IMG/VR virus record: IMGVR_UViG_3300030049_000007
DNA: 64,000 nucleotides
Source: a virus
Strand: one strand, 5' to 3'
This document shows positions 3,468 through 60,104 of this stretch, piece after piece (positions within the stretch are counted from its first letter, which is position 1; every line of letters starts with the position of its first letter). The translations under genes were made by a program, and so were the position numbers. The notes below the pieces were generated by a model that was not told the origin of the DNA, did no database searches, and saw only the letters and a list, made by a program, of their open reading frames with translations.

Positions 3468-5207
3468 ATGTCCTTAAACGAATTATTCGTCTTAAATTCA
3501 TCCATTCGTTTATCGGCTGATATGAATAGTTGGGGCGATCAAGTTATAAGCCAACTTATTAAATCATATCCGTCGCTCTCAAGTTTGGTGGGAGAAGTTG
3601 TTTTCGCCAAGACCGATACCGTAAAAGGTAATGCATTGGGATACATTACTTTAATCGGTAAAGTTCAGAGGATTCCATTTATTGTCGATGAATATGATCT
3701 AAATCCATTAGACATATATATAGACAATGGTAAATATCTACCTCTTTCAGAAAGAGCAGTTAATAGTTTAAATTCTAGAACTTGGCCCTTTCGTCTTATA
3801 TCCCAAACAGAAAGAAATGGAATTCTTAAGACTGCTTCGTTATTCGAGAATAATGGCATTTTGAAGGCAGAGTTTGTAAAAAAGAATAAAGAAACTTTTG
3901 AAAAAATTGCTGCTGAGTTTCCAGAAATTTTAGATAACTTTACTATCCGCAATACTCAGAAGGCCAATTCTGAATTTGCAGTACGTTGTTTTATTAAAGA
4001 AGCCGCAGATGCAAAACCAATTGTGGTCCGCGATCTTATTGCTGAAGATAAAGATTATAAAATTTCAGAATTTGCTGATAAATTCGGAAAAGATTTTCTT
4101 TCTGAATTAATGAGTAAGGGTGAAGCTATTGTTTCAAATATGCCTCCTAAAGTTAGATTAGCAATTGATAGTATGGAAATTAAGGGACTTTATAAAACTT
4201 CTGAAAATAGAGAAGGTTATCTTTGGCATAATGGAACTCCAATCGTAGCCAAGAGATTTGATCATTATCGTATGTCTGATTTAAAACGATCATCTATAGC
4301 TCCCTCTATTATTATAACAGAATGTGGCAAGTATTTTCAAAATGGAACATTAACAACTAAAGATGCCGGCAACGTTCCTAAGCATAAAGATAAGGTAGCT
4401 CCACAAAATGGTGATTATGCAGTAATTACCATTGGAGATAGTTGCTTTGGTCCATTTTTTATTAATAGTATTACAAAAATGGGTGCTGATAAAATTTACA
4501 ATATTACTACTGATGAATTAAAAGTAGTAAATCTTAAGACTAGTGAAGATATTAAAACTATAGTACAGTTAGATGAGAATAATTATTTATTCTCACAGAA
4601 TGCTCAGATTTTTAAAATTCATGTATCTGATATTGAGAATCCAAAAGATTTTGTTAAATCTGCTGGTTTGAAAGTTTCAGTATCAAAGCAGTTAGATGGT
4701 AACTTCTTAATTAGTGATTCTGGAATTTCTGGAATAGATTCTAATAAACTGAAAAATTTAAAGAAGGGTGATGCTACGGTAGTTTTAATGCATTGTGGCT
4801 TATCTGAGACAGATGCTAAATATGCCCTGATGCGGGCATTAACTAATAATACTTATTCTTTTGATGCACCAGAAAAACAGAAAGTTTCCTCAGATAAAGA
4901 TGTAACCTTAGAAAAGAAGGCTGAGGAAATTGTAAGTTACTGTAATGAAAATGAAGTATTAAAAATGGCCGCTGTGAGTGGCGATAAATCTAACGTGGAT
5001 TTAGCCTTGGGACTTAATTTAATTAATTATAGTAATATTAAACGATTTAAATTAATAGTTCCAGAAATTTATACTATGTTAGATAAATTATGTAAATTAC
5101 TAATTATTAAGCGCATTAATCGTAATTTATTTAACTTAGATGATACTCAACTTTCTCAAGCCATTCGCGCTTTGGACGAGATTTCGTTTGCCCTTAATTC
5201 CTTGTGA
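3468..5207 (+). CDS. Hypothetical protein, probable virion/head protein with K-x-A motifs
   Basis: 579-aa ORF with upstream GGAG; contains LKTAS, EKIAA, IKEAA, VKSAG, EKKAE, LKMAA. Confidence 0.6.
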   Translation: MSLNELFVLNSSIRLSADMNSWGDQVISQLIKSYPSLSSLVGEVVFAKTDTVKGNALGYITLIGKVQRIPFIVDEYDLNPLDIYIDNGKYLPLSERAVNSLNSRTWPFRLISQTERNGILKTASLFENNGILKAEFVKKNKETFEKIAAEFPEILDNFTIRNTQKANSEFAVRCFIKEAADAKPIVVRDLIAEDKDYKISEFADKFGKDFLSELMSKGEAIVSNMPPKVRLAIDSMEIKGLYKTSENREGYLWHNGTPIVAKRFDHYRMSDLKRSSIAPSIIITECGKYFQNGTLTTKDAGNVPKHKDKVAPQNGDYAVITIGDSCFGPFFINSITKMGADKIYNITTDELKVVNLKTSEDIKTIVQLDENNYLFSQNAQIFKIHVSDIENPKDFVKSAGLKVSVSKQLDGNFLISDSGISGIDSNKLKNLKKGDATVVLMHCGLSETDAKYALMRALTNNTYSFDAPEKQKVSSDKDVTLEKKAEEIVSYCNENEVLKMAAVSGDKSNVDLALGLNLINYSNIKRFKLIVPEIYTMLDKLCKLLIIKRINRNLFNLDDTQLSQAIRALDEISFALNSL

Positions 5208-41673: not shown

Positions 41674-41698
41674 CACTAGACGAATTTGTTGAGACAAT
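41670..41698 (+). promoter_or_regulatory. Possible sigma70-like promoter for the head cluster
   Basis: TTGACA-17 nt-GACAAT. Confidence 0.4.
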
Positions 41699-41712
41699 AA
41701 AAGTATCTTGAA

Positions 41713-42924
41713 TTGGACCCTCCTATGGATTTAGAACTTACAGCAAATAAAATAGCTTCGAAATATCTCAAGTCAAACGTAGATATGAATGAATCTATAG
41801 CTAAGTATGCTGCTGAAAATAAGTTAAATATTGAGCAAACTAAAAGATTAGTAGAAGAGTCCAATAAAACTTGTTATTTACAGAAATTTGCATCTACTGG
41901 TGATCAGATTTTTGATGTAGCACAATTTAATATAGTTAAAGAAAAAATCGGTTTATTAGATAAAGTAGAAAAAACTGCTGCTATTAAATTTACGGAATAT
42001 AGTGATTTAGAAAAAGTAGCAGAAGAAAATCAGGTTGATACTCTTGAATATCAACTTGCTATTGATAAATGTAGAAAAGAAATTGGAGAAGAATTAACTA
42101 AAGTAGCTTCTTATTATAGACGTTTAGTTTATGAAAATCCTTCTTTAGAAAAGTTAGCTTATAGTGAAGTTCCCGCATTAAAGAAAGATATGGATAAAAT
42201 TGCTCATAAAGAAAAAGTAATTGACTATTTAGTTGAAAAACGTGCGGGAATCATTTCTGGTTTAGCTGGTGGAGCATTAAAAGGTTCTGCTAAAGTAGTT
42301 GGTAAGGTTGGTGGTTATGTTGCCGAAGCTCCAATTAAAAGAGGCTTAATGCCGGCTAGTTATATTGGATCATTTAAGGAGGGGATGAAAAAAGTGCCTG
42401 ATAGTACTGGTAAATTTATTATGAATAAAGCCGCTGAAGTTACTAAAGAAGCTGGCGTATTTGATAAGGTTATACAAGCATTAGGTGAAAATTTAGTTCC
42501 AGCTTTAGCGTTAGGTTCTGTTGGAGTAGGTATTGCTGCTGCTAGAGGCGCTGGTGGTATCGTTTCAAGAATGATGCAGGAACGACAGTTAAATGATTCA
42601 TTTAATACAATTGCTAAAGCTAATGCTGATATTCGTAATATTCCTAATGCTAGAGATTATTTTGATGTAATTGCGCGGCATAGTCCTTCTTTAGCTTTAG
42701 ATCCAATGGTTGCCCCATCATTAATTCGTCAATTCGATACATTTAATGGAGTTGATGTTAATACAGTTGGTAAACTTCGTGAAATTCAGGATCGTGGCAG
42801 TAGAAATGATAGTCCTTCTATTTTAGACATGGCTGGTAGTTTCACTAAGGGATTTGATGCATTTAAAAAGAAAGATGTTAAACCCGTTGTAGTAAATACT
42901 TATTATAATGGCAAACCTGAATAG
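41713..42924 (+). CDS. Head-associated protein with many K-x-A motifs and hydrophobic segments (likely start ATG 41725)
   Basis: About 11 K-x-A motifs; LVPALALGSVGVGIAAARGAGG. Confidence 0.65.
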   Translation: MDPPMDLELTANKIASKYLKSNVDMNESIAKYAAENKLNIEQTKRLVEESNKTCYLQKFASTGDQIFDVAQFNIVKEKIGLLDKVEKTAAIKFTEYSDLEKVAEENQVDTLEYQLAIDKCRKEIGEELTKVASYYRRLVYENPSLEKLAYSEVPALKKDMDKIAHKEKVIDYLVEKRAGIISGLAGGALKGSAKVVGKVGGYVAEAPIKRGLMPASYIGSFKEGMKKVPDSTGKFIMNKAAEVTKEAGVFDKVIQALGENLVPALALGSVGVGIAAARGAGGIVSRMMQERQLNDSFNTIAKANADIRNIPNARDYFDVIARHSPSLALDPMVAPSLIRQFDTFNGVDVNTVGKLREIQDRGSRNDSPSILDMAGSFTKGFDAFKKKDVKPVVVNTYYNGKPE

Positions 42925-42954
42925 TAACCAAACTCACACATAGGAGACATTTAA

Positions 42955-43632
42955 ATGTCGAAGCTTTTAATTGATAAACTCACTGAAGAAGTAGAAAAGA
43001 CAGCTTCTGAAGTTGAAAAGACTGCCGAGGAACAGGCCCTTGAAAAGGTAGCTGGTGAAATTGGCGTTCTGGATGATTCGCGTTCTCTGATTGCTATTGG
43101 CGAGGAAATGTATAAGATCGCTGAAGAGTTAGAGAATGATAATCTGAAAGCTCTTGCTGCTGATACTTATCAGCTTGGCGAAAGAATGGGAGCTTGCCTT
43201 ACCAAGACTGCTTCTGAAGATGGTTCAGCTTTAGAAGAAGCTCTTGACATTGCTGAAGATATGAATAAGATCGCTTCAGTTTATGCTGAGATTGCTGATG
43301 AGGTTAAGGAAGACGAAACTCTTAATAAGATGGCTGAAACTCTTATTAATATTTCCAATGAACTTACTGAAGAGGCCAATGAGGTTCATACTCAGTTAGA
43401 TAAGATGGCTGAGGAAGAAGTAGAGAAGGATGCTAGTGCTAAAGATAAGGCTAAGGAATATGCTGAGAAAGCCAAAGAAGCTGGTAAGAAAGCCGGTGAT
43501 TATGCTGGTCAGAAAGCTAGTGCTTTAAAGGCTTTAATTAAAGCTCATCCTAAAGCCGCAATGGGTGCTGGCGGTGCCGCTGCCGCTTTAGCTGCTCTTG
43601 GTTATGGAGCTAAGAAACTTCACGATAAGTAA
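42955..43632 (+). CDS. Acidic scaffold-like protein with K-x-A repeats and a Gly/Ala-rich C-terminal helix
   Basis: EKTAS, EKTAE, EKVAG, YKIAE, TKTAS, NKIAS, NKMAE, DKMAE, EKDAS; AGGAG RBS. Confidence 0.7.
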   Translation: MSKLLIDKLTEEVEKTASEVEKTAEEQALEKVAGEIGVLDDSRSLIAIGEEMYKIAEELENDNLKALAADTYQLGERMGACLTKTASEDGSALEEALDIAEDMNKIASVYAEIADEVKEDETLNKMAETLINISNELTEEANEVHTQLDKMAEEEVEKDASAKDKAKEYAEKAKEAGKKAGDYAGQKASALKALIKAHPKAAMGAGGAAAALAALGYGAKKLHDK

Positions 43633-43640
43633 TAATTACG

Positions 43641-43670
43641 GAAATGCCTAGTCTATTTGATAGGCATTTC
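43641..43670 (+). promoter_or_regulatory. Perfect 10-bp intergenic hairpin
   Basis: GAAATGCCTA / TAGGCATTTC. Confidence 0.5.
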
Positions 43671-43694
43671 AGCAATTATTATCTAGAGGATCAC

Positions 43695-44042
43695 ATGAGT
43701 TTAATTAAATTAGCTATGCGAACTGGTAAAGCTATTAGAGGTTTATTTAGTGCCGTAGAAGCTGATGTTAAAAATTCTAGAAATGCAACTAAAAAAGCTA
43801 TTCAGGGCGCTTATGAAGGTGCCAAGAATGGTGATTTAGGTGCTGCTTATTTAAAACAACGTAAAATGAATAGTGATTTAGGTAAGAAGATTCGTAAATT
43901 AAGAGATCAGATTAAAGGTCATGAATCTGAAATTAAATCTCATAAATTAAAAGAAAAGATTATCGGTGGAGTTGGATTAGGAACTACCATTGGCGCTGGA
44001 AGTCTAGCTTTTCGTCATAAAAAGAATGTGGAGAAATTATAA
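43695..44042 (+). CDS. Small basic protein with MSLIKLA leader (putative internal virion protein)
   Basis: GAGGA RBS before ATG 43695; C-terminal IIGGVGLGTTIGAGSLAF. Confidence 0.7.
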   Translation: MSLIKLAMRTGKAIRGLFSAVEADVKNSRNATKKAIQGAYEGAKNGDLGAAYLKQRKMNSDLGKKIRKLRDQIKGHESEIKSHKLKEKIIGGVGLGTTIGAGSLAFRHKKNVEKL

Positions 44043-44317
44043 TGTCTATCGTAAAACTTGCTTTTAATCTTTCAGGGATTAAAGATGCAGTAGTTAATGC
44101 TGCTAAAGGTACTGCTATTAAATCTGAGGCTCATCGCCTTGAGAATAGTACCTTAACTTCATTACGCAGACTTCCTACTGCTGCTGATAAACTTAAACAT
44201 TTTGCTACTACTAAATCTGGCTTAAAATCTTTAGCTCCTAGTGCTGCTCTTTATGGAGGGGCTGCTTTAGGTGTTGGCGCTGCGGCAAAAGCTTTAACTG
44301 GCAAAAAGAATGATTAA
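44042..44317 (+). CDS. Small basic protein with MSIVKLA leader
   Basis: C-terminal AALYGGAALGVGAAAKAL. Confidence 0.7.
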   Translation: MSIVKLAFNLSGIKDAVVNAAKGTAIKSEAHRLENSTLTSLRRLPTAADKLKHFATTKSGLKSLAPSAALYGGAALGVGAAAKALTGKKND

Positions 44318-44663
44318 AGAAATTGCATTAAAATATGATGATTTAGGATTATTTAAACTTGCATCTATTCTTGAAAAAGATGGTGCGGTTAATCCTATGC
44401 AGATGGCCATTAGTAAGACTATGAATCCTGAACAGGGATTACATTATAATCTTGCTACCGATGCTGCCGCTGCTGCTAAAAAAGATCCTTCTAAATTAGG
44501 ATTAATGAGACAGCGTTTACAGGGATTAAAAAAGACTGGACCGTTAAGATTAGATGATGCTGTTAAATCTGGCATTGTTAATTCCTTAAAGAAACCTACT
44601 CCTATAGCAGAAGTTATTCCATTTGCTAATAAACTTAAATCTATGGCTTTAAAAGTGAAATAA
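44310..44663 (+). CDS. Small basic putative internal virion protein
   Basis: FKLAS motif; operon position. Confidence 0.6.
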   Translation: MIKEIALKYDDLGLFKLASILEKDGAVNPMQMAISKTMNPEQGLHYNLATDAAAAAKKDPSKLGLMRQRLQGLKKTGPLRLDDAVKSGIVNSLKKPTPIAEVIPFANKLKSMALKVK

Positions 44664-44664
44664 T

Positions 44665-44880
44665 ATGAGTTTAATTAAATTAGCATTTAAAGACTCAAAA
44701 GAATTAGATAGTGAATATATAGATAATAGATGGCTTGGAAGACGGGCAAGAGGTAAGTTATTAACTTATCCATTAGCTGCATTTGGAATGTTACCTGCTC
44801 CATTACTTGGACATTACTTAGATCATAGACGTAAAGAGAAAGATTTTATGAATCATCCTGAAAAATTTAAAAAGAAATAA
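44665..44880 (+). CDS. Small basic protein with MSLIKLA leader
   Basis: Hydrophobic LLTYPLAAFGMLPAPLLG. Confidence 0.7.
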   Translation: MSLIKLAFKDSKELDSEYIDNRWLGRRARGKLLTYPLAAFGMLPAPLLGHYLDHRRKEKDFMNHPEKFKKK

Positions 44881-44882
44881 TA

Positions 44883-46607
44883 ATGTATAAATTAATAGAA
44901 TCATCAAATATTCCAGAAGATCAACAAATATCTATCTCATTAGAAGATAGATATGAAAATGATTTTATTAAAACTGCTTCTAAAAGAGATTTACCAAAAG
45001 AAGTTGATGAGGCTATTAAAAATTTAAAACGTAAAAAAGATCATAGCTATATGTTAGTAACTGCTATGGGTGATGGTGAAACATGGTCTGATAATAAAAA
45101 TCATGATTATTTTCCATATGATTCATTGTTAGGATTACAAAATACTCCTGTTTGGAATGAAGTCTCACCTAAAGATGAAAGATTAAATAATAGAATAAAA
45201 GCTAAGTTACGTTATCAAACATTTAGTGACGCTGGCTGGTTTCATCATCATCATAACAAACCAGAGCGTGGAGATCAAATTTATGGTGAGGTTCCAAATG
45301 CTATTTGGAATCCAAAAATGCATACAGTACTTCTTATTATTGGAGTAGATAATAAAAAAGATCCTGAAACTGCTGAAATGATTAAAAGAAATCAATTAGT
45401 TGCAGTTTCTATGGGAGCTAAACTTCCATGGGATCGTTGTTCTATTTGTCATCAACATAATACTTCTATTATGAAATATTGTCCTCATCTTAAATTTCAA
45501 ATGGGTAAAATTTTAGATGATGGTCGTAAAATTTATGCTGAAAATTTATTTCCTAGATTTTTTGATATTAGTAAAGTAAATCGACCTGCATTTTTAGCCG
45601 GTATGCAATTAGAAAAAGTTGCTAGTACAGATTTTGAATTTAGTTTAGATCTTGCTGATTATTATGATATTGGACAATTTGATAAAGAGGCAGAAGAAAT
45701 AGAAAAACATTCTACCATTTACAAAGAAATGCCAACTCATATTGAAGGTGCAATAGCTAAAGTATGTAATACTGAAAGAGATCTTCCACATAAATTAATG
45801 GAAGAATTAGCTAAACTTAAACCTTCTGAAGCTTGGGGTGCTTTAACTCATGCCGGTATTATTGCTAAGCCAAATGAGTTTGCTTATATTTTATTAAAGA
45901 ATTCTAATCGTGATGATTTAGCTCAAGAATTTTATCATACTAAAGCAGTAATTAAAAATCCTGACGTAAAAGGATTAGATGAAGAATTGCATTCTTTAGC
46001 TGATATTGATATTACACATAAAGCCGTTAAATTATCTAATGAAATTCCTACTCATATATTAGATGAAAGATCTATTGGATGTGTTGGAGATAGAATTTAC
46101 AATACTGAAAAAGGTTTACGTAAAGAAGCCGAAATAACTAGAACTATAGGTCTTGGATCTATTCTTTCTGCATTATATTTATTATATCGTAATAACGCTG
46201 AAAGTAAATTTAGCGCTTATGGTTTATTAGGTTCTGGTATTTCTCAAATGATTAGAGACAATAAAGAGTCTGATAAATATATTAGTAATAATCCATTTAC
46301 TAATGAAGAGTTAAATAAACAAGCTGCCGCAGTTCCTGGTTTCTGGAATTCAGGCAAAGGATTATTAACTAAAGGAGCTATTGGTTTTGCAGCTCCATAT
46401 ATTGCTAGTGCCCACTACCAAAATAAAATGCAACAAGGATATCCTGTTGGAGTTTTAGGTAGAACTATTGCTAACAACCCTGGTAAAATGGGAATTGTTG
46501 GTGCCGCAATGGGAATGGCTGGTGCAAAGAATAGTTATAAAGCTATTAAGAATGTATCTAATGATTTAACAACTGGCGTAAGCAAAATTTTTAAGGATAA
46601 AAAATAA
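44883..46607 (+). CDS. Prohead (capsid maturation) protease with zinc insertion and long C-terminal extension
   Basis: NKNHD.F, HHHHNK, VSMG, CSIC...CPH, FFDISKV..PA, an HK97/assemblin-fold protease pattern; upstream of scaffold and MCP. Confidence 0.72.
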   Translation: MYKLIESSNIPEDQQISISLEDRYENDFIKTASKRDLPKEVDEAIKNLKRKKDHSYMLVTAMGDGETWSDNKNHDYFPYDSLLGLQNTPVWNEVSPKDERLNNRIKAKLRYQTFSDAGWFHHHHNKPERGDQIYGEVPNAIWNPKMHTVLLIIGVDNKKDPETAEMIKRNQLVAVSMGAKLPWDRCSICHQHNTSIMKYCPHLKFQMGKILDDGRKIYAENLFPRFFDISKVNRPAFLAGMQLEKVASTDFEFSLDLADYYDIGQFDKEAEEIEKHSTIYKEMPTHIEGAIAKVCNTERDLPHKLMEELAKLKPSEAWGALTHAGIIAKPNEFAYILLKNSNRDDLAQEFYHTKAVIKNPDVKGLDEELHSLADIDITHKAVKLSNEIPTHILDERSIGCVGDRIYNTEKGLRKEAEITRTIGLGSILSALYLLYRNNAESKFSAYGLLGSGISQMIRDNKESDKYISNNPFTNEELNKQAAAVPGFWNSGKGLLTKGAIGFAAPYIASAHYQNKMQQGYPVGVLGRTIANNPGKMGIVGAAMGMAGAKNSYKAIKNVSNDLTTGVSKIFKDKK

Positions 46608-47179
46608 TGGATCTCAAAGAATTTATAGAAAAAACAGAGCCAGAGGTCTTGCAAAAACTCGCGTCTGAAGCTCAAGATGAAATGGTTAATAAAGTAATAG
46701 ATGCTATCTTTCCTTTGTTAGAAAAGACCGCAAATTATACAGCACAGCTTGTCTTAGAAAAGATTGCCGAAGAATTATCTGAAAAGAAAGAACCTAAAGA
46801 AGAAAAGGAAGAGGTTGAAAATACCGATAATCCTAATGAGGAAAGTGCAGAACAAGCTGCTGTAGAAGATGAAAATGTTAAAATAGATAGTACTCCTGCT
46901 ACTGGTAATAAAACTAATGAAACTATGGACCCAACTAATACTCCAGGTGGTATGCGGGCTCAGGATATTAAAAATGCGGTAAGTGAAGCTTGCGAGGCTG
47001 GTCAATCTAATAAAATTATTCCATTTGTTAAAGCTGTAGGTGAACAATATCCTGATGCTATTCAGGAATTAATTAAAATGGTTAAAGTAGAATTACAAGC
47101 TGCTTTTTTAAATAAATCTATTGATGAGGAAACTGCTACTGCTCTTTCCGATGAATTAAATGCGATGGTGGGAGCTTAA
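46607..47179 (+). CDS. Acidic scaffold-like protein
   Basis: QKLAS, EKTAN, EKIAE; lies between protease and MCP. Confidence 0.55.
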   Translation: MDLKEFIEKTEPEVLQKLASEAQDEMVNKVIDAIFPLLEKTANYTAQLVLEKIAEELSEKKEPKEEKEEVENTDNPNEESAEQAAVEDENVKIDSTPATGNKTNETMDPTNTPGGMRAQDIKNAVSEACEAGQSNKIIPFVKAVGEQYPDAIQELIKMVKVELQAAFLNKSIDEETATALSDELNAMVGA

Positions 47180-47584
47180 ATGAGTGATAGTTTTATTGAT
47201 AAACTTTTAGCAGAAGCCGAATCTGAGATTGGTTCGGATTTAGAAAAGTCAGCTAATGATGAAAATGGTGCGCCCGATGCTCCATCTAATCAGGAACAGG
47301 GTGGTGGTGATATTTTAACTACTGCTCAAGCCTTTTTACAGAAAGTAGAACAGTTTAAAGCTGCTTTATCTCAGGGTGGGACTCCAGCAGAAGGTGATCC
47401 TAATGCGCAGCCTAATCAGGAAGATCAACCTGCCGAAGCTGCCGCTGCTCAAGCTGTAGGAGCTACTACTTCTGGTAATAGCACAGTAATGATTCAAAGA
47501 CCTGATGGAACGCAAATTAAATTAGCCTCTTTAGCTTCGTTAGTTTCGGCTAGAGGATCTAAACTTTTTAAAGAGGTAAATTAA
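47180..47584 (+). CDS. Acidic low-complexity head-assembly protein
   Basis: EKSAN, IKLAS. Confidence 0.55.
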   Translation: MSDSFIDKLLAEAESEIGSDLEKSANDENGAPDAPSNQEQGGGDILTTAQAFLQKVEQFKAALSQGGTPAEGDPNAQPNQEDQPAEAAAAQAVGATTSGNSTVMIQRPDGTQIKLASLASLVSARGSKLFKEVN

Positions 47585-47585
47585 A

Positions 47586-47969
47586 ATGGACCCAGTTCAG
47601 CAAGGTCAATCAGATCCGCTTCAGGATGCTTTACAGCTTTTAGATGAATCTGCTGCTATTATTCAAGAATTAACTGCTCAGATTCAGTCTAAGGGAAAAG
47701 ACGAAGATATGTCCAAGAAAGCGGAGGAAGTGGCCGTTAAATTAGGCGTGTCTTTTAATCAGGCTTCTGATATGATTAAGACTGCGAGCGAATCAGGTGA
47801 AAGTATCGATGCCATGGTAAAAATGGCCTCTATTATGAGACAGAATAGATCTTTTGGTTCCGTATATACAGAAGAAAAAGTAATTCCAATTTCAGGCTCT
47901 AAAGCAATTGATTCATTCATGGAAAAGCAAGCTGCGTTAATGGGTGAATTAGGACTTGACGAAAATTAA
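47586..47969 (+). CDS. Putative scaffolding protein
   Basis: Helical; SKKAE, IKTAS, VKMAS, EKQAA. Confidence 0.55.
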   Translation: MDPVQQGQSDPLQDALQLLDESAAIIQELTAQIQSKGKDEDMSKKAEEVAVKLGVSFNQASDMIKTASESGESIDAMVKMASIMRQNRSFGSVYTEEKVIPISGSKAIDSFMEKQAALMGELGLDEN

Positions 47970-47994
47970 CCATTATATCAAGGAGATATAAAAT

Positions 47995-48429
47995 ATGTTT
48001 AACATTCTCAGTGGCCTTCAGGAAGGTTCTCACTCAGTAATGATCACTAGCCGTTCTGGCCCCGCCGGACTGGTTAAAGGTACGGTTGTTCAGTTAACTG
48101 GTACTTCTAATACTATTGCTAAATCTGATAATAGCACCGTAGGTCTTGGATCTTCAATTGGTTTCATCTTTGAAGATCTGTTAAGTCAGACTTCCGGTTC
48201 TTATACCGTAGTTTATGGTGTCATGGAAGCTGAAACTGATCAGGTTTCTGGATCACCTGCCATTGGTTCTTATCTTAAGCCTGGCACTGGTGCTACTGCC
48301 GGTTTACTTATTGCAGCTAGTCTTCCTGGCGATGCTAATTTGGTTAAAGGTCAGGTAGCTGATAGTTACAGCATTGCTAATGATGCTCAGGGTATTAGCA
48401 CTTCGGTTTATCGTATCGTAACCTTTTAA
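47995..48429 (+). CDS. Capsid decoration/cement-like protein
   Basis: 144 aa, Gly/Ser/Thr-rich beta pattern, immediately before the MCP; strong RBS. Confidence 0.55.
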   Translation: MFNILSGLQEGSHSVMITSRSGPAGLVKGTVVQLTGTSNTIAKSDNSTVGLGSSIGFIFEDLLSQTSGSYTVVYGVMEAETDQVSGSPAIGSYLKPGTGATAGLLIAASLPGDANLVKGQVADSYSIANDAQGISTSVYRIVTF

Positions 48430-48462
48430 GATAAATTAAAAATTAAATAGGAGATTTTAATT

Positions 48463-49383
48463 ATGAGTAATATGATGGCTTCCCAGCTTTGGGATGTATT
48501 TACCGGAAAATCAGCTTCCGGTATGGAGAAGGTAGCCGCTCTTACTGAGGATTTTATTCGTGATCGCCTTCGTGAGACTAGCGTATTAAATCGCGCTATT
48601 CCTCCTGTAGTACTTACCGAAGCACAGATTGAACGTAATACTACTAATGACTGGCCTCTGAAGCGCGTTGAGATTGAGCCCGATTCTAAGGCTTTCACTC
48701 TTGGCTTCCGTGGTAAGGGTTCTGCTAACTTTATGGAAGGCAGAAAGTATGAAGTTTACTTTACCAAGATTGAAACTCAGCACTTTAAGAAGACCCGTGA
48801 AGAATTAATGACAATGCGTTATCCTCTTATGGATGTTGTGAATAACAACTTCGTACTGGATATGCAGGAACAGCTTGATGCTCTCTTTAAGATTAGACTT
48901 GATGCTTCCGTAGCCGCTTCCGGTAATACCTCTGCTGCTACTGCTGGTGCCGTAAAAGATAACTTTAAGAATGCAGTTATTACAGCGGTTCGTCAGGTGC
49001 TTGGTAAACGGCGTAGAGTTGCTCGCCTTATTATGACAGAATCAACTTGGCTGGACCTGGCTAAGCTCGAACCTGATAAGATTGGTTATGAGAATGTTGG
49101 ACGTATTGCGCTGAATGGCGTTGCTGCGGAAAAGACATTCTTAGGTTATGAAGTTATCACTTCGATTAACTCCACTACCGCTAATAGCGTATGGCCTGAT
49201 GATAGTATCTATGCCATTGCAATGCCTGAATTTTTAGGTTCTAACTTTATCCTGGGTGATGTTCAACAGGAAATGAAGCGTGAAGCTAATATTCTCGAAT
49301 GGTATTCATGGGCTGATCAGGGTGCTGAAATTGGTAACGTTGCCTCAGTTGCTAAGGTTACTGGTATTGCCTCTCTCACTTAA
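48463..49383 (+). CDS. Major capsid protein (probable HK97 fold)
   Basis: 306 aa; strong AGGAG RBS; biased codons; canonical position after protease, scaffold and decoration genes. Confidence 0.72.
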   Translation: MSNMMASQLWDVFTGKSASGMEKVAALTEDFIRDRLRETSVLNRAIPPVVLTEAQIERNTTNDWPLKRVEIEPDSKAFTLGFRGKGSANFMEGRKYEVYFTKIETQHFKKTREELMTMRYPLMDVVNNNFVLDMQEQLDALFKIRLDASVAASGNTSAATAGAVKDNFKNAVITAVRQVLGKRRRVARLIMTESTWLDLAKLEPDKIGYENVGRIALNGVAAEKTFLGYEVITSINSTTANSVWPDDSIYAIAMPEFLGSNFILGDVQQEMKREANILEWYSWADQGAEIGNVASVAKVTGIASLT

Positions 49384-49396
49384 ATAGGAGTTACAT

Positions 49397-49768
49397 ATGT
49401 CGTATGTCAAAGCTTTGTTTGGTCATATTACTGGAGAAGGTCTTTCGTTAAAAGAGGGGCAGATTGGATTTATTGAAGATAGTAAAAAGCATATCTTAAA
49501 TGATCTAGTTAAACGCGGTCTCGTTATTGTTAAAGATTCTCATGAAGAGGCTGAAGCTTTTAAGTTTATTTCTCGTCAGGAATTATTTAATAAAAGTTAC
49601 AAATCTTTAAATCCTCCTGAAGGCGAAAATGCTCCTGTTAGTTTAATTGATTGGGAAAATACTCAACCTACTATTATTAATGGAATCCCATCTAATTATA
49701 TTGTTGAAGAGCCTAAGAAAGAAGTTAAAAAAGTAGTAACTCCTCCTTCTTCAGATGATAAAAAGTAA
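49397..49768 (+). CDS. Hypothetical head-associated protein
   Basis: AGGAG RBS; follows the MCP. Confidence 0.6.
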   Translation: MSYVKALFGHITGEGLSLKEGQIGFIEDSKKHILNDLVKRGLVIVKDSHEEAEAFKFISRQELFNKSYKSLNPPEGENAPVSLIDWENTQPTIINGIPSNYIVEEPKKEVKKVVTPPSSDDKK

Positions 49769-49782
49769 ATTGTTATAATATG

Positions 49783-49820
49783 AAACAACTAAAAACCGCT
49801 TCTAGCGGTTTTTGTTGTTT
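49783..49820 (+). terminator. Intrinsic terminator
   Basis: AAAAACCGCT-TCT-AGCGGTTTTT. Confidence 0.75.
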
Positions 49821-49849
49821 TATGATATAATCAGATAGAGGTAACTCAC

Positions 49850-50686
49850 ATGATTAATCCACCCCAGACCTTTCCAAATGGTCAAATGACTCCACAAATT
49901 TTAATTAATCTTATTCGCATGTTTCTTCGAGATAAACCTAAATTAAATGCTTTAATTAAAAAAGAAGAAACAGATGATGATGAAATTAAATTAGCTATTA
50001 ATATGGCTATTAGTGATTGGAATAGCACTCCACCACTTTTAACTCACGTTGGATTAACTAATTTTCCAGTTATGGATTGGTTAATTGTGGCAAGTGCTAT
50101 GTTTATTTTGCAGTCTGCTGGTGTATTACAATATAGAAATGAATTGCAATTTAATGATAGTGGTATTACTACTAGTCCATGGACGAAGGGTCCAGCTTAT
50201 ATGGGCGTAGCTGGTATGTGGGCTCAATTAGTAGAAAAGAAAAAATATGAATTTAAACTTGCAATTAATTATGGTCGTACATTTGGTATTGTTAAAAGTG
50301 CTGAATATATGCTTTGGGATTACTCAGGACTTTATACTGGTCCAGACTATTTAACCGCTACAGGAACCTCCTCTATGTCTGCCGTCCCTGGTGGTATTCT
50401 AGGCCCGAATGGTCCCAGCGGTAGACCCCAGACCCCCCAGAAAACCGACCCATTTGTATTTGTAATGAGCAATTGGACCCTCGATCCGGTGAATAATCGT
50501 TACGTGATAAATTTCTATCACAATTTAAATTCAGATGTAGATGTTAGAATTACAGATCCAGTTACCGGAACTGATTTACGAAATAAAGTTAATATTGTTT
50601 TTCAGAATAAGAATGTATTATTTATTTGGGTTCCGATAGTACCTGATACTCGAATGGAAGGCCAGATGATTGCATTTAAACTTTAA
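49850..50686 (+). CDS. Head-tail adaptor/connector-like protein
   Basis: IRMFLRD...TDDDEIKLAINMAISDWN helical adaptor pattern; position. Confidence 0.55.
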   Translation: MINPPQTFPNGQMTPQILINLIRMFLRDKPKLNALIKKEETDDDEIKLAINMAISDWNSTPPLLTHVGLTNFPVMDWLIVASAMFILQSAGVLQYRNELQFNDSGITTSPWTKGPAYMGVAGMWAQLVEKKKYEFKLAINYGRTFGIVKSAEYMLWDYSGLYTGPDYLTATGTSSMSAVPGGILGPNGPSGRPQTPQKTDPFVFVMSNWTLDPVNNRYVINFYHNLNSDVDVRITDPVTGTDLRNKVNIVFQNKNVLFIWVPIVPDTRMEGQMIAFKL

Positions 50687-55679: not shown

Positions 55680-56138
55680 CTATTTCTTTACATTCTTATC
55701 GTTAGGCATATATTGATTTAATAAAGAACCATCTAATACATTCTTATCATTTATTTTATAATAAATGACTATACGATAAAACATTGGATTTTCTTTATCT
55801 TTAGTTGTAAATTCTCCAATATAACATAACTTAATTTCTTTAGCCCAATCCTTATTTATTAAATCATCATATTCGTCTAAGTGAATTCTAGAAATAATCT
55901 CACCAAAAAAACTAAATTTCTTTTTTAATTTCTTTTCTTCTAAATCAGTAATATCGCTATACTGAAAAATAATAAAAGGATTGCCAAACATATCTAATCT
56001 AATATCATTATCAACTATATGATATTTATGATTATTATTAGCAATCTTATCTAAAAGTAATACATATTCACCTAATTCATCAGTATTAGTTAATTCAAAA
56101 TATTCGGAATGAGATTTTACGACTGGCGTTTTTTCCAT
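55680..56138 (-). CDS. Hypothetical protein
   Basis: 152-aa ORF. Confidence 0.6.
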   Translation of the reverse strand: MEKTPVVKSHSEYFELTNTDELGEYVLLLDKIANNNHKYHIVDNDIRLDMFGNPFIIFQYSDITDLEEKKLKKKFSFFGEIISRIHLDEYDDLINKDWAKEIKLCYIGEFTTKDKENPMFYRIVIYYKINDKNVLDGSLLNQYMPNDKNVKK

Positions 56139-56944
56139 GGACCCAAATCCCTTACGTTAGTATTCATTAACTTCTGCCAATTATCGAATCTGGCTATACG
56201 ACGCGCTCTGGCTTCAGGAGTTGACATTAAGCGATCTGCTAATATATGTTTTCCAATTAATTTATTATAAAAAGGTTTATTAGCAGCCTCTAATTGAGAT
56301 CTCCAATAATTATCTTTAAAATATTCTTTATGAATTTTAGGCATCATAGATAATTTACCATGTGTAAAATTCATCATTTTCTTAACAGATCCACCTAATG
56401 CGCCACCAATTAATCCACCTTTAGCCATACCTTTTAATTTTTCATGCTCATTATCTCCCTGAGTATATCCAATAGCGGCACCACTAATAGTTCCTAAATG
56501 AGCGGTTGGAACTTTCTTAGCTACACTTAAAAATTTATGAGCATCATTACCTAAATTAATCATTCCCTCAATATTTTTAATTTTAAATTGACCATCATCT
56601 GAAATGGAATGTTTTAATATACTTTTAGCAATTCTATTAGTTCCCGTGGGAACATTATGAATATCTTCTAATGCATTAATTCCCATACGTCCAAACTGTC
56701 CAAGTAATGCACCATCTATAAAAGCGCCTCTTAAAGTAGTTGAGTCTTGAACTAATCCTTTTCTTATATTAGCTTCAGCTTGTGCTACTCCAGCTAAAGC
56801 TGATCTTTGTATAATATTTTTTCTAATAGGACCATTAGTTCTAGACATCATAAATTTTAATGGATTCCCAGATCTAGCTGCTCTCATACTATAAAAACTA
56901 GGGAATAAACTACCCGGATTAAATGCTAATTTTATTAAACTCAT
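56117..56944 (-). CDS. Basic protein with MSLIKLA leader and glycine-zipper segments
   Basis: LGTISGAAIGY...GMAKGGLIGGALGG; coupled to the portal gene. Confidence 0.7.
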   Translation of the reverse strand: MSLIKLAFNPGSLFPSFYSMRAARSGNPLKFMMSRTNGPIRKNIIQRSALAGVAQAEANIRKGLVQDSTTLRGAFIDGALLGQFGRMGINALEDIHNVPTGTNRIAKSILKHSISDDGQFKIKNIEGMINLGNDAHKFLSVAKKVPTAHLGTISGAAIGYTQGDNEHEKLKGMAKGGLIGGALGGSVKKMMNFTHGKLSMMPKIHKEYFKDNYWRSQLEAANKPFYNKLIGKHILADRLMSTPEARARRIARFDNWQKLMNTNVRDLGPWKKRQS

Positions 56945-58764
56945 ACCTTCGCCTTTTCGGGAGTAGATTTTGGACCTTTAACTTCAGGTAATGGATCTGC
57001 TGAAACCCCATTTAATTCTGCCATAACTTTCATATAAACTTCTGGATCTTTAGCTTGCAAATTTCTTAATTCTTTTTGTCTATCAGCATAAGATAAATCT
57101 TTAAATTTATTCACAAATCCACGAGTAGTTGTAGCCATAAATCCATCACCTATATTAGATTGAGCAGATTGAGTTTCTTGACCTTGTAATAATTGTGTTC
57201 TTAAATTAACATCAACTTGACCTTCATTAGTAACTTGAGAAACTTCTTTATTAACTTCAGCAGCAGCCAATTGTCTAGCTGCTTGAATTCTCTCAAGGAA
57301 GGGTTTATCATCTTCCATTTGCTTAGCTTCATCGGCAATATTAATACCAACTTGAGCCAAAGCTGTACTTTCACTAATACGACCCTGCGCACCAAGATTT
57401 GAAAGCATTTGAATTTGCTGAATATCATCAGCCATTTTAAATGGTTTAAGTTTAACACTACTTGGAGCTTGCTTATTGGTCATACGTGCTAAATAACGTA
57501 CTAAAAATCTAATAAATGTATTTTGTTTATTAATATAATATAAAAATAAATTCTCTAACATACGTAAAGAAATATTAGATCCGCTCCAAGTCATACCACC
57601 ATAAATTAATTCTGGTGGAATTCCTAATTGAGTAAGAATTCTACGATCCTGTAATTCAATTTCTTCCCGTAAAGACATAGCTTTTCCTTGGCCACCCAAA
57701 GCCTGATAGCCAACAGGAAAAGGAACAACTCCAATTTCATTGGGATCATTTTGCTGTCTCTTTAATTGAGTAGCTACAATACCCATCCATGCAGCACCAT
57801 CAATTTTACTTAACGGATCAGTGCCACTAGACGACGTTGGAAATATAAATCTATTAGGAAGAAAATGATCTGAAGCAATACATTCCTGAGCCTTACGTAA
57901 AATAAAACTCATAAATAAATCGTTCCATGCTGAGAAGAAAAATGGTTTTGATAATCCTTCCCATTCTGGTTCTGTAATGCCTTCATGCTGATAATGAAAA
58001 GTTAATTCAGCAGGTAATTCTATTACTGGATTAATTGGATTTTGTTTGCAAGCTAATATGAAAGTTTCTGGAACATTAGCTACTACAAATTTATCACCCT
58101 TCATAATTGGTTTAGAATATTTATCTTCGATACGATAATAAATTTTCTTTTTACCAGCAATACCTAAATCTCTTACTTTAATAAACTGAACAGGCCATCT
58201 CTGAATTCTAATATTTTTAATGAATTCATCGCCTTCTAACAATTCATCTTTAACCTTCATTACACCTTGAAATTTACAATTTTTATTAGAACATTTAGCT
58301 AGAAATTTATAATCCCTAAATTGCCATTCAAATTTACGATCTTCATCAGTAATACAATGTGCTTTATAAGTATTACAATCAGGACAAGCTAAATAACGTT
58401 TAAATGGAGGAACTATAGATACTATAGCATTTCCAAAAGTATAATAATCTTTTCCATTTTTAACTAATTCATCTTGAATACATAATTCATCATTAAGTAA
58501 TTTAGACCAATAATTTTTATCTTCTCCAATATCATTATCTACTACCACGGGAGTAATAGGATATCGTGACATAGTATCGGTAATACGATCTAAAAGACCA
58601 GAAGATTCGTTTAAAACAATAGCCCATTTAAAAATTTCATTTAAAGTCTTTGGTCTTTGAAGATGTAATAAATTATAAAATCTTTGAGGATACTGCAAGC
58701 CGTTCATTGGATAACGACGACCAGTCTCCGGTGCTACTACTGATGTTGTAGATACATTAGTCAT
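56941..58764 (-). CDS. Portal protein
   Basis: 607 aa; DYYTFGNAIV, ILTQLGIPPELIYGG, ISESTAL; Gln-rich C-terminus. Confidence 0.72.
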   Translation of the reverse strand: MTNVSTTSVVAPETGRRYPMNGLQYPQRFYNLLHLQRPKTLNEIFKWAIVLNESSGLLDRITDTMSRYPITPVVVDNDIGEDKNYWSKLLNDELCIQDELVKNGKDYYTFGNAIVSIVPPFKRYLACPDCNTYKAHCITDEDRKFEWQFRDYKFLAKCSNKNCKFQGVMKVKDELLEGDEFIKNIRIQRWPVQFIKVRDLGIAGKKKIYYRIEDKYSKPIMKGDKFVVANVPETFILACKQNPINPVIELPAELTFHYQHEGITEPEWEGLSKPFFFSAWNDLFMSFILRKAQECIASDHFLPNRFIFPTSSSGTDPLSKIDGAAWMGIVATQLKRQQNDPNEIGVVPFPVGYQALGGQGKAMSLREEIELQDRRILTQLGIPPELIYGGMTWSGSNISLRMLENLFLYYINKQNTFIRFLVRYLARMTNKQAPSSVKLKPFKMADDIQQIQMLSNLGAQGRISESTALAQVGINIADEAKQMEDDKPFLERIQAARQLAAAEVNKEVSQVTNEGQVDVNLRTQLLQGQETQSAQSNIGDGFMATTTRGFVNKFKDLSYADRQKELRNLQAKDPEVYMKVMAELNGVSADPLPEVKGPKSTPEKAKV

Positions 58765-59185
58765 TTAAATATCTTTCAACAGCCTTATGTTTTAAATCTT
58801 GCATTTTTTGTTGATCTATATCTAATTTAACTTCGTTTGATATTTCATCTAATTCATCTTGTGCGAATTTTAAAATATCAGGAAGTTGGCACCAACCTTC
58901 TTCAAAAGCAATTTCTGCTATATACTTCTTTACTTCACGATGCCAGTTCTGTTCACCTAATAGTTTAACAGCTTTAGCTATGTGAAGTATAGTAGAAGGT
59001 TCGAGAATATCTATGTTGGGTTTAAATCCATTTAGTACATAAACTAATTTTTCAAAAGTAAATACATTACCTAATATTCCAGGGTTGGATTTAAGTGCTT
59101 GAAGTGCAAAAATCTTTTCAAGCTGATTTTCATATAACCGGCCATCATTAAGTAAGACGATTGTGTCATTCTCTAAGTTATTCAT
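58757..59185 (-). CDS. Hypothetical protein
   Basis: 142-aa ORF coupled to the portal gene. Confidence 0.6.
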   Translation of the reverse strand: MNNLENDTIVLLNDGRLYENQLEKIFALQALKSNPGILGNVFTFEKLVYVLNGFKPNIDILEPSTILHIAKAVKLLGEQNWHREVKKYIAEIAFEEGWCQLPDILKFAQDELDEISNEVKLDIDQQKMQDLKHKAVERYLND

Positions 59186-60104
59186 TTATCTTACGAATCA
59201 CAATTACACGAATGTTAGGATTAATTTCACGTAAAGCATCCACTGGATTACTCTTTAATTTGTCCAAGACTTTATCTTCAAGAATATCTTTTAAAGAATT
59301 AAAGTCAAATTTATTTATTTTATGTAAAGGAAGTGATTCTTCTCCAATATTAACATTTTCATTAGCGTTAGTTTCAAATGGAGTCAATAAACCAGCGTAA
59401 GGATCTTCCAATTCGTTATCATAAAATTTATGTAAACCAGTTCTATGATCGAATATACCTAAAGCTTTAGCTACTAATTCTGGAATATGTGATTCTGATT
59501 CTTCCTGCATTTTAAGTAAGTGAGTCCGTTCTGGAGCATCGCTTTTAAAATATTTCATACGATCGGCAAATGCATGTCCATAATTTTTCTTAAAGTGATC
59601 GCCAGCATATCTATATACTGAATCATGCAAAGAAGACTGTTTACCTAACGAATGAGCATGATGTAAAATTTCTTTAGCCTTCTCCCTACGTTCCTCTATA
59701 GGATATCGTTTATGATTATCAATAAATTTGTTTAATTCAATAGATAAAGAATGTAAAGCATCTAAATCATCTTCCTCAGAAGCAGTTTTGGAAAATTCAA
59801 CTTCTGGTAATTCAAAAGTTTTATAAGCATCACTAATTCGATCTCTAATTTCAGAAACTTCACGTTCGTCAAATTCATGTGCAAATTTTTCAAAATAAGC
59901 ATTACTAAACCATGTATGTTCAGGAGTATGAATTGGAAAATATCTATTAATACCATCAGAGTAAGCAAAACAACCATCTGCTAATTTTTCTAAATTTTCA
60001 GATACAATATTATCTTCTGCTACCTTAATAAACTCTGGCATTGCTTCATTAATAGCACCAATTCTATATCTACCTAATTGATCATGAATATGGTCAGTAA
60101 ACAT
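59178..60104 (-). CDS. Hypothetical virion protein with K-x-A motifs
   Basis: IKVAE, EKLAD, EKFAH, SKTAS. Confidence 0.6.
   Translation of the reverse strand: MFTDHIHDQLGRYRIGAINEAMPEFIKVAEDNIVSENLEKLADGCFAYSDGINRYFPIHTPEHTWFSNAYFEKFAHEFDEREVSEIRDRISDAYKTFELPEVEFSKTASEEDDLDALHSLSIELNKFIDNHKRYPIEERREKAKEILHHAHSLGKQSSLHDSVYRYAGDHFKKNYGHAFADRMKYFKSDAPERTHLLKMQEESESHIPELVAKALGIFDHRTGLHKFYDNELEDPYAGLLTPFETNANENVNIGEESLPLHKINKFDFNSLKDILEDKVLDKLKSNPVDALREINPNIRVIVIRKINE

What the first reader, a model, noticed from the sequence alone, without database searches (positions are those of the whole stretch)
41713..49383. Module-wide hydrophobic-x-K-x-A motif: a candidate new prohead-protease cleavage code
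Seen: K-x-A, usually followed by S/A/E/G, occurs about 11 times in 41713-42924 and at least 9 times in 42955-43632. It occurs 5 times in the protease, where it brackets the catalytic domain (IKTAS, EKVAS). There are 2-4 copies in each scaffold-like gene, copies in the MCP N-terminus (GKSAS, EKVAA), and further copies in 3468-5207 and 59178-60104. It is scarce in tail genes. Known: T4 gp21 and phiKZ gp175 cut many head proteins at short motifs ending in Glu. Inference: this protease cuts after K-x-A, shredding acidic propeptides and releasing mature domains from polyproteins.
Basis: partly seen in the sequence, partly recalled or inferred. Interest (0 to 1): 0.85.

Follow-up and report, generated by a model that had tools for sequence, protein, structure and literature searches.

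The report
Lys-x-Ala cut-site code of head protease
The head-assembly proteins of this uncultured 157-kb phage and of its distant relatives carry a conserved hydrophobic-x-Lys-x-Ala tag. It is most likely where the phage's T4-type capsid protease cuts, which differs from the "cut after glutamate" rule of all studied relatives, but no cut has been shown yet.

Summary
Observation confirmed. The motif [LIVMF]-x-K-x-A-[S/A/E/G] occurs 37 times in nine head-associated proteins. About 2.2 copies are expected after local shuffling, and the reversed motif occurs 3 times. Genome-wide, 36 of 52 copies lie in seven genes.

K.A is the top pattern in an unbiased scan of this phage, Vibrio phage D69 and Salmonella phage Arash (MCP about 25% identical). 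The same scan on T4 returns I.E and L.E, the known gp21 cut motif. A more distant jumbo phage (Dickeya JA29) shows no K.A enrichment.

Motif copies bracket the protease catalytic domain (T4 gp21/herpes assemblin fold; H123 and S176 invariant). They lie 5-9 residues upstream of the conserved MCP N-arm in seven phages. They are far better conserved than other Lys/Ala residues. Nine unrelated proteins start with the heptapeptide MSL(I/V)KLA.

The best reading is a recognition and cleavage code of the phage's own prohead protease. The cut is probably after Ala; a cut after Lys is not excluded. No cleavage has been measured.

The scan reached the same reading earlier on another genome (e1-5688984). 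I found no publication describing it. It is a new variant of a known kind and can be tested directly in Arash or D69.

The parts
44883..46607 (+). Prohead protease, 574 aa. The catalytic domain spans about residues 33-247. It is followed by a linker, a helical domain (285-409) and a hydrophobic helical C-terminus.
   Evidence: It matches phrog_18299, head maturation protease, at E 3e-11. The AF2 catalytic domain has pLDDT above 90. The best fold matches are T4 gp21 5jbl (Z 9.3) and VZV protease 1vzv (Z 9.1). H123 and S176 are invariant in 52 homologues. No Pfam family matches.
44964..44981 (+). Site FIKTAS (residues 28-33): inferred N-terminal autocleavage site of the protease.
   Evidence: K30 and A32 are at least 90% conserved. 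The motif is present in 73 of 77 homologues and in 134 of 141 further cluster representatives. It lies at the junction between a disordered N-terminus and the folded domain.
45609..45626 (+). Site LEKVAS (residues 243-248): inferred C-terminal release site of the catalytic domain.
   Evidence: K245 and A247 are at least 90% conserved. The motif is present in 71 of 77 homologues, and the next residue varies freely. Phage G gp19 also has it. It ends the last strand before a disordered linker. A weak hhalign alignment places it within 2 residues of the I-T-E186 motif of T4 gp21.
45678..46328 (+). Three further canonical sites in the protease C-terminal extension: FDKEAE (266-271), LRKEAE (412-417) and LNKQAA (477-482).
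   Evidence: Sites 268 and 479 lie in segments with pLDDT below 50. Site 414 lies in a loop between domains. They are kept in 52, 38 and 46 of 77 homologues.
41713..42924 (+). 403-aa head protein. Ten canonical motif copies lie in its N-terminal two thirds, ahead of a conserved C-terminal domain. The true start is probably the ATG at 41725.
   Evidence: K.A occurs 11 times against 4.3 expected, and the strict motif 8 times against 0.4. It is homologous to the motif-rich D69 and Arash gp220 proteins. Motif positions are kept across orthologues while the spacers vary.
42955..43632 (+). 225-aa acidic scaffold-like protein with 9 canonical copies.
   Evidence: The strict motif occurs 9 times against 0.47 expected. 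Motif K and A are 78% and 83% conserved, against 26% and 35% for other K and A in the same protein.
43695..44880 (+). Four small basic proteins. 43695-44042, 44042-44317 and 44665-44880 each start with MSL(I/V)KLA or MSIVKLA. 44310-44663 carries LFKLAS at residues 14-19.
   Evidence: Found in the start-codon scan of the genome. The leaders are kept in sister phages.
46607..47969 (+). Three scaffold-like acidic proteins (190, 134 and 127 aa) with 3-4 K.A copies each.
   Evidence: Counts are. In orthologue alignments the motifs are conserved islands in otherwise divergent sequence.
48463..49383 (+). HK97-fold major capsid protein. The canonical site MEKVAA (residues 21-26, nt 48523-48540) precedes the N-arm.
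   Evidence: It matches phrog_2522, with a weak Pfam Phage_capsid hit. All seven clade MCPs carry x-x-K-x-A 5-9 residues upstream of the conserved (F/Y)xRxxLRE N-arm motif, six of them with an aliphatic or aromatic residue at or next to position -2.
3468..5207 (+). 579-aa multi-domain protein of unknown fold, next to the RNA polymerase gene. It has six canonical sites at K121, K146, K177, K397, K483 and K499.
   Evidence: The canonical sites are invariant or nearly so in 25 homologues with 55% mean identity. The three non-canonical K.A copies drift. In the AF2 model, two sites lie inside low-confidence linkers and two more within 3-8 residues of one. No portal or other known fold was found.
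59178..60104 (-). 308-aa protein beside the portal gene, with four canonical sites in its first 110 residues.
   Evidence: K and A are kept in 33-35 of 35 homologues with 57% mean identity. There is a weak DUF6582 match. The first three sites lie inside a conserved domain, so they may not be accessible.
56117..56944 (-). 275-aa protein downstream of the portal gene that starts with MSLIKLA.
56941..58764 (-). Portal protein. It serves as a negative control because it shows no motif enrichment.
   Evidence: tblastn with the Arash portal gp204 hits here at E 8e-57. K.A occurs 3 times against 2.9 expected, and there is no strict copy.

Best explanation
Hydrophobic-x-Lys-x-Ala, usually followed by Ser, Ala, Glu or Gly, is the recognition and cleavage motif of this phage clade's own prohead protease. 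The protease is a Ser/His enzyme of the T4 gp21 / herpes assemblin fold.

Inferred sequence of events inside the assembled prohead:
- The protease frees its catalytic domain by cutting at residues 28-33 and 243-248.
- It trims about 25 residues from the capsid protein.
- It chops the acidic scaffold-like proteins and the N-terminal part of the 403-aa protein into short peptides that can leave the shell.
- It separates the domains of packaged proteins such as 3468-5207.

A minimal form of the tag, the N-terminal heptapeptide MSL(I/V)KLA, marks at least nine otherwise unrelated proteins. By analogy with the T4 capsid-targeting sequence, it probably both loads them into the prohead and is then removed.

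I favour a cut after Ala (P5 hydrophobic, P3 Lys, P1 Ala, P1' small) about 2:1 over a cut after Lys.

Shown here: the motif, its enrichment, its conservation, its placement and the protease fold. Inferred: that cutting occurs, which bond is cut, and the loading role.

The confidence given is for 'cleavage code of the phage's own protease', whichever of the two bonds is cut.
For: 1. Enrichment is directional and independent of composition. Pooled over nine phages there are 183 copies against 10.3 expected. Lys is not replaceable by Arg, and Ala is not replaceable by Gly or Ser.

2. A blind scan of all gapped dipeptides ranks K.A first in this phage, D69 and Arash. The same scan on the T4 head module ranks I.E first and L.E second, which is the experimentally known gp21 motif (PMC5694885).

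3. The motif tracks the protease clade. It is present in six further phages whose proteases are 25-38% identical. It is absent from Dickeya phage JA29, whose protease is more distant and has Lys instead of the clade's invariant Met after the catalytic Ser.

4. Placement fits cleavage. Copies sit at both ends of the catalytic domain and in disordered linkers. T4 gp21 likewise carries its own motif at both ends (LIE9 and ITE186 in the sequence). A copy also sits at a fixed distance before the MCP N-arm in seven phages.

5. There is purifying selection. Motif K and A are 77% and 79% conserved against 48% and 45% for other K and A (p 1e-6 and 4e-8). Canonical copies are invariant while non-canonical copies drift.

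6. The shared MSL(I/V)KLA leaders stop being conserved exactly at Ala.

7. Position +1 is small in 62% of copies and hydrophobic in only 6%. This resembles the P1' Ser preference of SPN3US gp245 (PMC10052503) and, from my own recollection, the herpes assemblin A|S sites.
Against: No cleavage has been measured for any member. The Arash virion proteome paper reports no processing analysis (PMC10585845).

The register is ambiguous. The constrained window runs from -4 to +2 around Lys, which is symmetric about a Lys|x bond. Hydrophobic-x-Lys would also mirror T4's L/I-x-Glu.

In the nine leaders the residue after Ala is mostly bulky and hydrophobic, unlike at internal sites.

Three of the four sites in 59178-60104 and site K177 in 3468-5207 lie in well-conserved or confidently folded regions, where a protease might not reach them.

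The match to T4 gp21 rests on fold (Z 9.3) and a weak profile alignment (E 0.37). It does not rest on a Pfam hit.
Confidence: 0.75

Rival explanations
1. The same protease reads the same motif but cuts after Lys (hydrophobic-x-Lys | x-Ala-Ser). This would be a charge-reversed copy of the T4 rule L/I-x-Glu|. It is a variant nested within the best explanation, not an independent alternative.
For: P3 hydrophobic with a charged P1 matches the T4 register (PMC5694885). Positional constraints span -4 to +2 around Lys, which is symmetric about a Lys|x bond. Lys is as strictly required as Ala.
Against: Leader conservation stops at Ala, not at Lys. A strict Ala at P2' together with a small, non-hydrophobic residue at P3' would be an unusual prime-side requirement. 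The clade has an invariant Met next to the catalytic Ser, where JA29 has Lys and T4 has Arg two residues on. That suggests a hydrophobic pocket rather than an acidic one, but this is inference from an alignment only.
Confidence: 0.25
2. The motif is a docking or capsid-targeting short linear motif that binds the shell interior, scaffold core or protease and is not cut. It would work like an encapsulin cargo-loading peptide or the targeting half of the T4 CTS.
For: The identical 7-residue leader occurs on nine unrelated proteins. Many copies per scaffold protein could give multivalent binding. Some copies lie in folded, conserved regions.
Against: A docking role does not explain why copies bracket the protease catalytic domain and sit in disordered linkers. 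It also does not explain the fixed position before the MCP N-arm. The T4 control shows that a true cleavage motif produces exactly this statistical signature. Targeting and cleavage are coupled in T4, so the two roles are not exclusive.
Confidence: 0.15
3. The sites are cut by a host protease or by another phage enzyme, not by the prohead protease.
For: From memory, there is a precedent: staphylococcal phage 80alpha uses a host protease for capsid and scaffold processing. This was not checked here.
Against: The motif is kept in phages of very different hosts (Salmonella, Vibrio, peat and other metagenomes) and always alongside this protease family, which carries the motif at its own domain borders. 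It is absent where the protease is of a different clade.
Confidence: 0.05
4. The motif is a by-product of the composition or helical periodicity of Lys/Ala/Glu-rich coiled-coil proteins and has no specific function.
For: The richest proteins are acidic, Ala- and Lys-rich and largely helical.
Against: Local block shuffles give 2.2 expected copies against 37 observed, and the reversed motif occurs 3 times. There are strict requirements at -2, K, A and +1. Positions are conserved across 25-70% identity.
Confidence: 0.02

Closest known systems
Phage T4 prohead core system: gp21 protease (MEROPS S77), scaffold gp22, gp67/gp68, and internal proteins with a capsid-targeting sequence
   Same: Same protease fold (5jbl, Z 9.3). 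The His and Ser align. In both, the enzyme's own motif flanks the catalytic domain, the scaffold is saturated with the motif, a short N-terminal MCP piece carries it, and short N-terminal leaders end in it. The statistical signature is the same.
   Different: T4 cuts after Glu in L/I-x-E, whereas here the motif is hydrophobic-x-K-x-A. The Pfam S77 model does not match. The protease carries a Cys-rich insert and a roughly 330-residue C-terminal extension. The leader is 7 residues rather than 10.
Giant-phage proteases phiKZ gp175 and SPN3US gp245
   Same: Many head and ejection proteins are processed, propeptides hold multiple motif copies, the protease auto-cleaves at its C-terminus, and P1' prefers Ser (PMC5694885, PMC10052503).
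   Different: Their motif is S/A/G-x-E or A-x-E with a cut after Glu. The SPN3US portal is cleaved, whereas the portal here shows no motif enrichment.
Herpesvirus assemblin (MEROPS S21), release and maturation sites
   Same: Fold match to VZV protease (Z 9.1). From established knowledge recalled here, not tested: assemblin cuts Ala|Ser, and its release site lies at the C-terminal end of the catalytic domain, like LEKVA|S.
   Different: Assemblin has a Ser-His-His triad and hydrophobic P3/P4 residues, with no required Lys at P3 or hydrophobic residue at P5. The host range and the rest of the assembly system also differ.
Earlier finding of this scan, e1-5688984 (a ~177-kb phage, Lys-x-Ala code)
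   Same: Same motif and same reading, reached on other DNA.
   Different: It is a different genome. It is an AI note, not a publication. The tests reported here were run independently of it.

Membership tests
T4 gp21-type prohead core protease (MEROPS S77 / Pfam Peptidase_S77) | Assemblin-like fold of the catalytic domain | tested here: met
   AF2 model with pLDDT above 90 over residues 40-240. Best PDB match is 5jbl_A: Z 9.3, rmsd 3.0, 127 residues aligned.
T4 gp21-type prohead core protease (MEROPS S77 / Pfam Peptidase_S77) | Conserved catalytic His and Ser | tested here: met
   H123 and S176 are invariant in 52 homologues. They align with T4 H85 and S140 in a weak hhalign alignment and in MAFFT.
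T4 gp21-type prohead core protease (MEROPS S77 / Pfam Peptidase_S77) | Match to the curated sequence model | tested here: not met
   No Pfam family matches the whole protein at E up to 0.01 or the catalytic domain at E up to 10. Only PHROG 18299 matches.
T4 gp21-type prohead core protease (MEROPS S77 / Pfam Peptidase_S77) | Cleavage after Glu in (L/I or S/A/G)-x-E | tested here: not met
   No x.E pattern appears among the enriched patterns of the head module, where K.A ranks first. This is inferred from motif statistics, not from measured cuts.
T4 gp21-type prohead core protease (MEROPS S77 / Pfam Peptidase_S77) | Gene lies in the head module among scaffold and MCP genes | tested here: met
   Gene order is terminase, motif-rich proteins, protease, scaffold-like proteins, MCP. 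The same order holds in D69, Arash and loci L007-L013.
Herpesvirus assemblin (MEROPS S21) | Ser-His-His triad and Ala|Ser cleavage | not testable with these tools
   The fold match to 1vzv is Z 9.1. The third catalytic residue and the scissile bond cannot be read from the available outputs.
T4-type capsid-targeting sequence | Short shared N-terminal leader that ends in the protease motif, on otherwise unrelated proteins | tested here: met
   Nine ORFs start with MSL(I/V)KLA, and conservation stops at Ala. Sister phages keep the leader. Packaging and removal were not tested.

The most novel reading that the evidence does not exclude
The tag serves two roles across a very large, almost wholly uncultured phage clade. 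The profile search found 4776 clusters at 50% identity. In this reading, a five- to seven-residue hydrophobic-x-K-x-A leader is enough to load any protein into the prohead, by docking in the protease or scaffold core, and is then cut off after Ala. T4-type prohead proteases would then have switched from an acidic P1 to a herpes-like Ala|Ser rule. The clade would also offer a minimal, portable capsid-packaging tag and a sequence-only way to read out the injected cargo of thousands of unknown phages.
Probability: 0.3. Interest if true: 0.72.

Novelty: new variant of a known kind. Interest (0 to 1): 0.6.

Why it matters
Every prohead protease of the T4/phiKZ type studied so far cuts after glutamate. 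A conserved Lys-x-Ala code would be the first re-tuned specificity in that group.

The code would allow mature virion proteins, disposable propeptides and packaged or injected cargo to be predicted from sequence alone in a clade seen almost only in metagenomes. Two cultured members, Salmonella phage Arash and Vibrio phage D69, make it testable with routine proteomics.

There is also a practical warning. Tryptic digests cut at the motif's Lys and will hide or blur these sites.

Tried and rejected
- Foldseek of the whole protease model against the PDB gave nothing significant. The fold appeared only with VIA-align.
- An HMM search of the protease profile against PDB sequences found nothing.
- I tested whether 3468-5207 is the portal. 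Atlas, BFVD and VIA-align gave no portal match, and only generic helical bundles for its C-terminus. The true portal is 56941-58764.
- The 561-aa ORF upstream of the RNA polymerase gene is not the portal either.
- The Arash paper and its supplement hold no peptide-level or processing data.
- The phage G multi-omics paper gives no cleavage sites.
- Five literature searches found no description of a K-x-A prohead protease motif. The library lacks most subscription journals, so this is not proof of absence.
The Met-versus-Lys/Arg contrast next to the catalytic Ser is therefore only a lead.

Full report
**What the region is.** The window comes from a 157-kb uncultured phage genome. Region 40096-50686 is a head module. 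Its gene order is:
- large terminase;
- a 403-aa and a 225-aa protein with no family match;
- several small basic proteins;
- a 574-aa protein matching PHROG 18299, 'head maturation protease' (E 3e-11);
- three acidic scaffold-like proteins;
- a 144-aa protein;
- an HK97-type major capsid protein (MCP).

A second head cluster lies on the minus strand. tblastn with the annotated portal of Salmonella phage Arash hits 56941-58764 at E 8e-57. This places 59178-60104 and 56117-56944 beside the portal rather than among tail genes.

Listing the contexts shows a sharper motif: [LIVMF]-x-K-x-A followed by S, A, E or G.
- Genome-wide there are 52 copies against 13.5 expected, and 36 of them lie in seven genes.
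- With shuffling inside 25-residue blocks, which keeps local composition, nine proteins hold 37 copies against 2.2 expected. The maximum in 1000 shuffles was 8.
- The reversed motif, which has identical composition, occurs 3 times.
- A logo from 287 K.A instances in seven phages carries information only from -2 to +2: L/M/F/I at -2, a bias to E at -1, K, a beta-branched or acidic x, A, then S > A/E > G.
- Pooled over nine phages there are 183 strict copies against 10.3 expected. Arg does not replace Lys, and Gly or Ser does not replace Ala.
- Pro is excluded from -3 to +1, basic residues are depleted on both sides, and hydrophobic residues are depleted at +1.

**A blind test with controls.** I scanned all gapped and ungapped residue pairs for enrichment in the head-module proteins.
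- K.A ranks first in this phage, in Vibrio phage D69 and in Salmonella phage Arash (z above 5), and fourth in Bacillus phage G.
- The same scan on T4 genes 20-24 and inh ranks I.E first and L.E second. That is the experimentally established gp21 motif (PMC5694885). T4 gp22 has 16 copies against 5.7 expected and gp21 has 7 against 2.6, so the statistic does find true protease motifs.
- As a negative control, Dickeya jumbo phage JA29 has a protease that aligns only over the core. It shows no K.A enrichment (z 0.1) and a slight A.E/S.E excess.

**The motif follows the protease clade.** D69 and Arash share protease, MCP and 403-aa-protein homologues with the window at only 25-35% identity. The same syntenic proteins are nonetheless motif-rich. 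Four metagenomic phages whose proteases are 25-38% identical behave the same way. A profile search of 1.84 billion cluster representatives finds 4776 relatives at E up to 1e-3 and 2461 at 1e-30. Among the 141 new best hits, 134 carry hydrophobic-x-K-x-A within the first 70 residues. They average 5.9 copies against 1.4 expected.

**Placement.** In 77 protease homologues the motif is present at the site equivalent to K30 in 73 and at K245 in 71, while the residue after Ala varies widely. K30, A32, K245 and A247 are at least 90% conserved, and H123 and S176 are invariant.

The AF2 model has a confident catalytic domain (about residues 35-247). Low-confidence segments are 1-33, 248-281 and 447-486. 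Sites K30, K245, K268 and K479 lie at or within those segments, and K414 lies in an inter-domain loop. The non-conserved K497 copy sits inside a helix.

The domain's best PDB matches are T4 gp21 (Z 9.3) and VZV protease (Z 9.1). The T4 gp21 sequence itself carries L-I-E9 and I-T-E186 at its two ends. A weak profile alignment puts LEKVA|S within two residues of I-T-E186 and aligns His and Ser correctly.

All seven clade MCPs carry x-x-K-x-A 5-9 residues upstream of the conserved (F/Y)xRxxLRE N-arm motif. Six of them have an aliphatic or aromatic residue at or next to position -2.

**Selection.**
- In five-way orthologue alignments (38-70% identity), the motifs are conserved islands between spacers that change in sequence and length.
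- Motif Lys and Ala are 77% and 79% conserved, against 48% and 45% for other Lys and Ala in the same proteins (p 1e-6 and 4e-8).
- In 3468-5207 the six canonical sites are invariant or nearly so in 25 homologues with 55% mean identity. The three non-canonical K.A copies drift.
- In 59178-60104 all four sites are kept in 33-35 of 35 homologues.

**Shared leaders.** Nine ORFs of the genome start with M-S-L-(I/V)-K-L-A and are otherwise unrelated. Four of them lie in the window: 43695, 44042, 44665 and 56117. Sister phages keep the leader, or a six-residue form M-I-(I/V)-K-L-A. This parallels the T4 capsid-targeting sequence, a 10-residue leader that is enough for packaging and is removed by gp21 (PMC9026906).

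**Mechanism and its limits.** The best reading is that this is the cleavage code of the clade's own protease. It would act in auto-release of the catalytic domain, MCP trimming, scaffold shredding and separation of cargo domains.

Which bond is cut is not settled. A cut after Ala is favoured by three points:
- Leader conservation stops at Ala.
- Position +1 prefers small, non-hydrophobic residues, like the P1' Ser preference of SPN3US gp245 (PMC10052503).
- An invariant Met follows the catalytic Ser, where JA29 has Lys and T4 has Arg two residues on. This is inference only.

A cut after Lys would mirror T4's hydrophobic-x-Glu and fits the symmetric constraint window. The leaders also have bulky residues after Ala, unlike internal sites.

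Some copies may be inaccessible. Three of the four sites in 59178-60104 and K177 in 3468-5207 lie in conserved or confidently folded regions. No cut has been measured in any member. The Arash proteome study used trypsin and did not analyse processing.

**Novelty.** The papers I could search describe only Glu-ending motifs for T4, phiKZ, 201phi2-1 and SPN3US, and none mentions K-x-A. An earlier agent of this scan reached the same reading on another genome (e1-5688984). That is not independent evidence, and the tests reported here are my own. I rate the finding a new variant of a known kind.

Noticed in passing
window 43695-44042, 44042-44317, 44665-44880, 56117-56944(-). Outside the window, in window coordinates: -6609..-6268, -3098..-2799, 84224-84967, 85834-86163, 126910-127791: Nine otherwise unrelated ORFs start with the same heptapeptide, MSL(I/V)KLA. 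The residue after Ala varies. Sister phages keep the leader. It is a candidate minimal capsid-targeting tag.
   Followed up: partly
window 45438-45494 (protease residues 186-204): A Cys-rich insert (C-S-I-C ... C-x-H) follows the catalytic Ser. C186, C189 and C200 are conserved. Phage G gp19 and Dickeya JA29 share the insert, and T4 gp21 lacks it. It looks like a zinc ribbon.
   Followed up: partly
protease homologues P0062, P0075, P0077, P0078, P0080 and many of P0124-P0247: Many homologues are 800-1450 aa long and match the profile in two or three separated stretches. Some carry intein or Hint Pfam domains. Inteins therefore appear to interrupt this protease gene often.
   Followed up: no
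window 6137-7183 and 7198-8643: Two adjacent ORFs match the N-terminal (profile 34-321) and C-terminal (381-695) parts of the same ribonucleotide reductase PHROG. The gene appears to be split.
   Followed up: no
window 41713-41727: The listed TTG start of the 403-aa protein is probably wrong. Orthologues begin at the Met that corresponds to the ATG at 41725.
   Followed up: partly
L008 2566-5493: The large terminase of this relative is 975 aa, against about 525 aa elsewhere. This suggests an inserted element such as an intein.
   Followed up: no
window 1-3198 (part of a 1995-aa ORF, genome 23576-29563): A very large RNA polymerase beta-like protein. Its Arash counterparts are among the most abundant virion proteins (PMC10585845). 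It shows no strict motif copy, so if it is packaged it is probably not processed.
   Followed up: no
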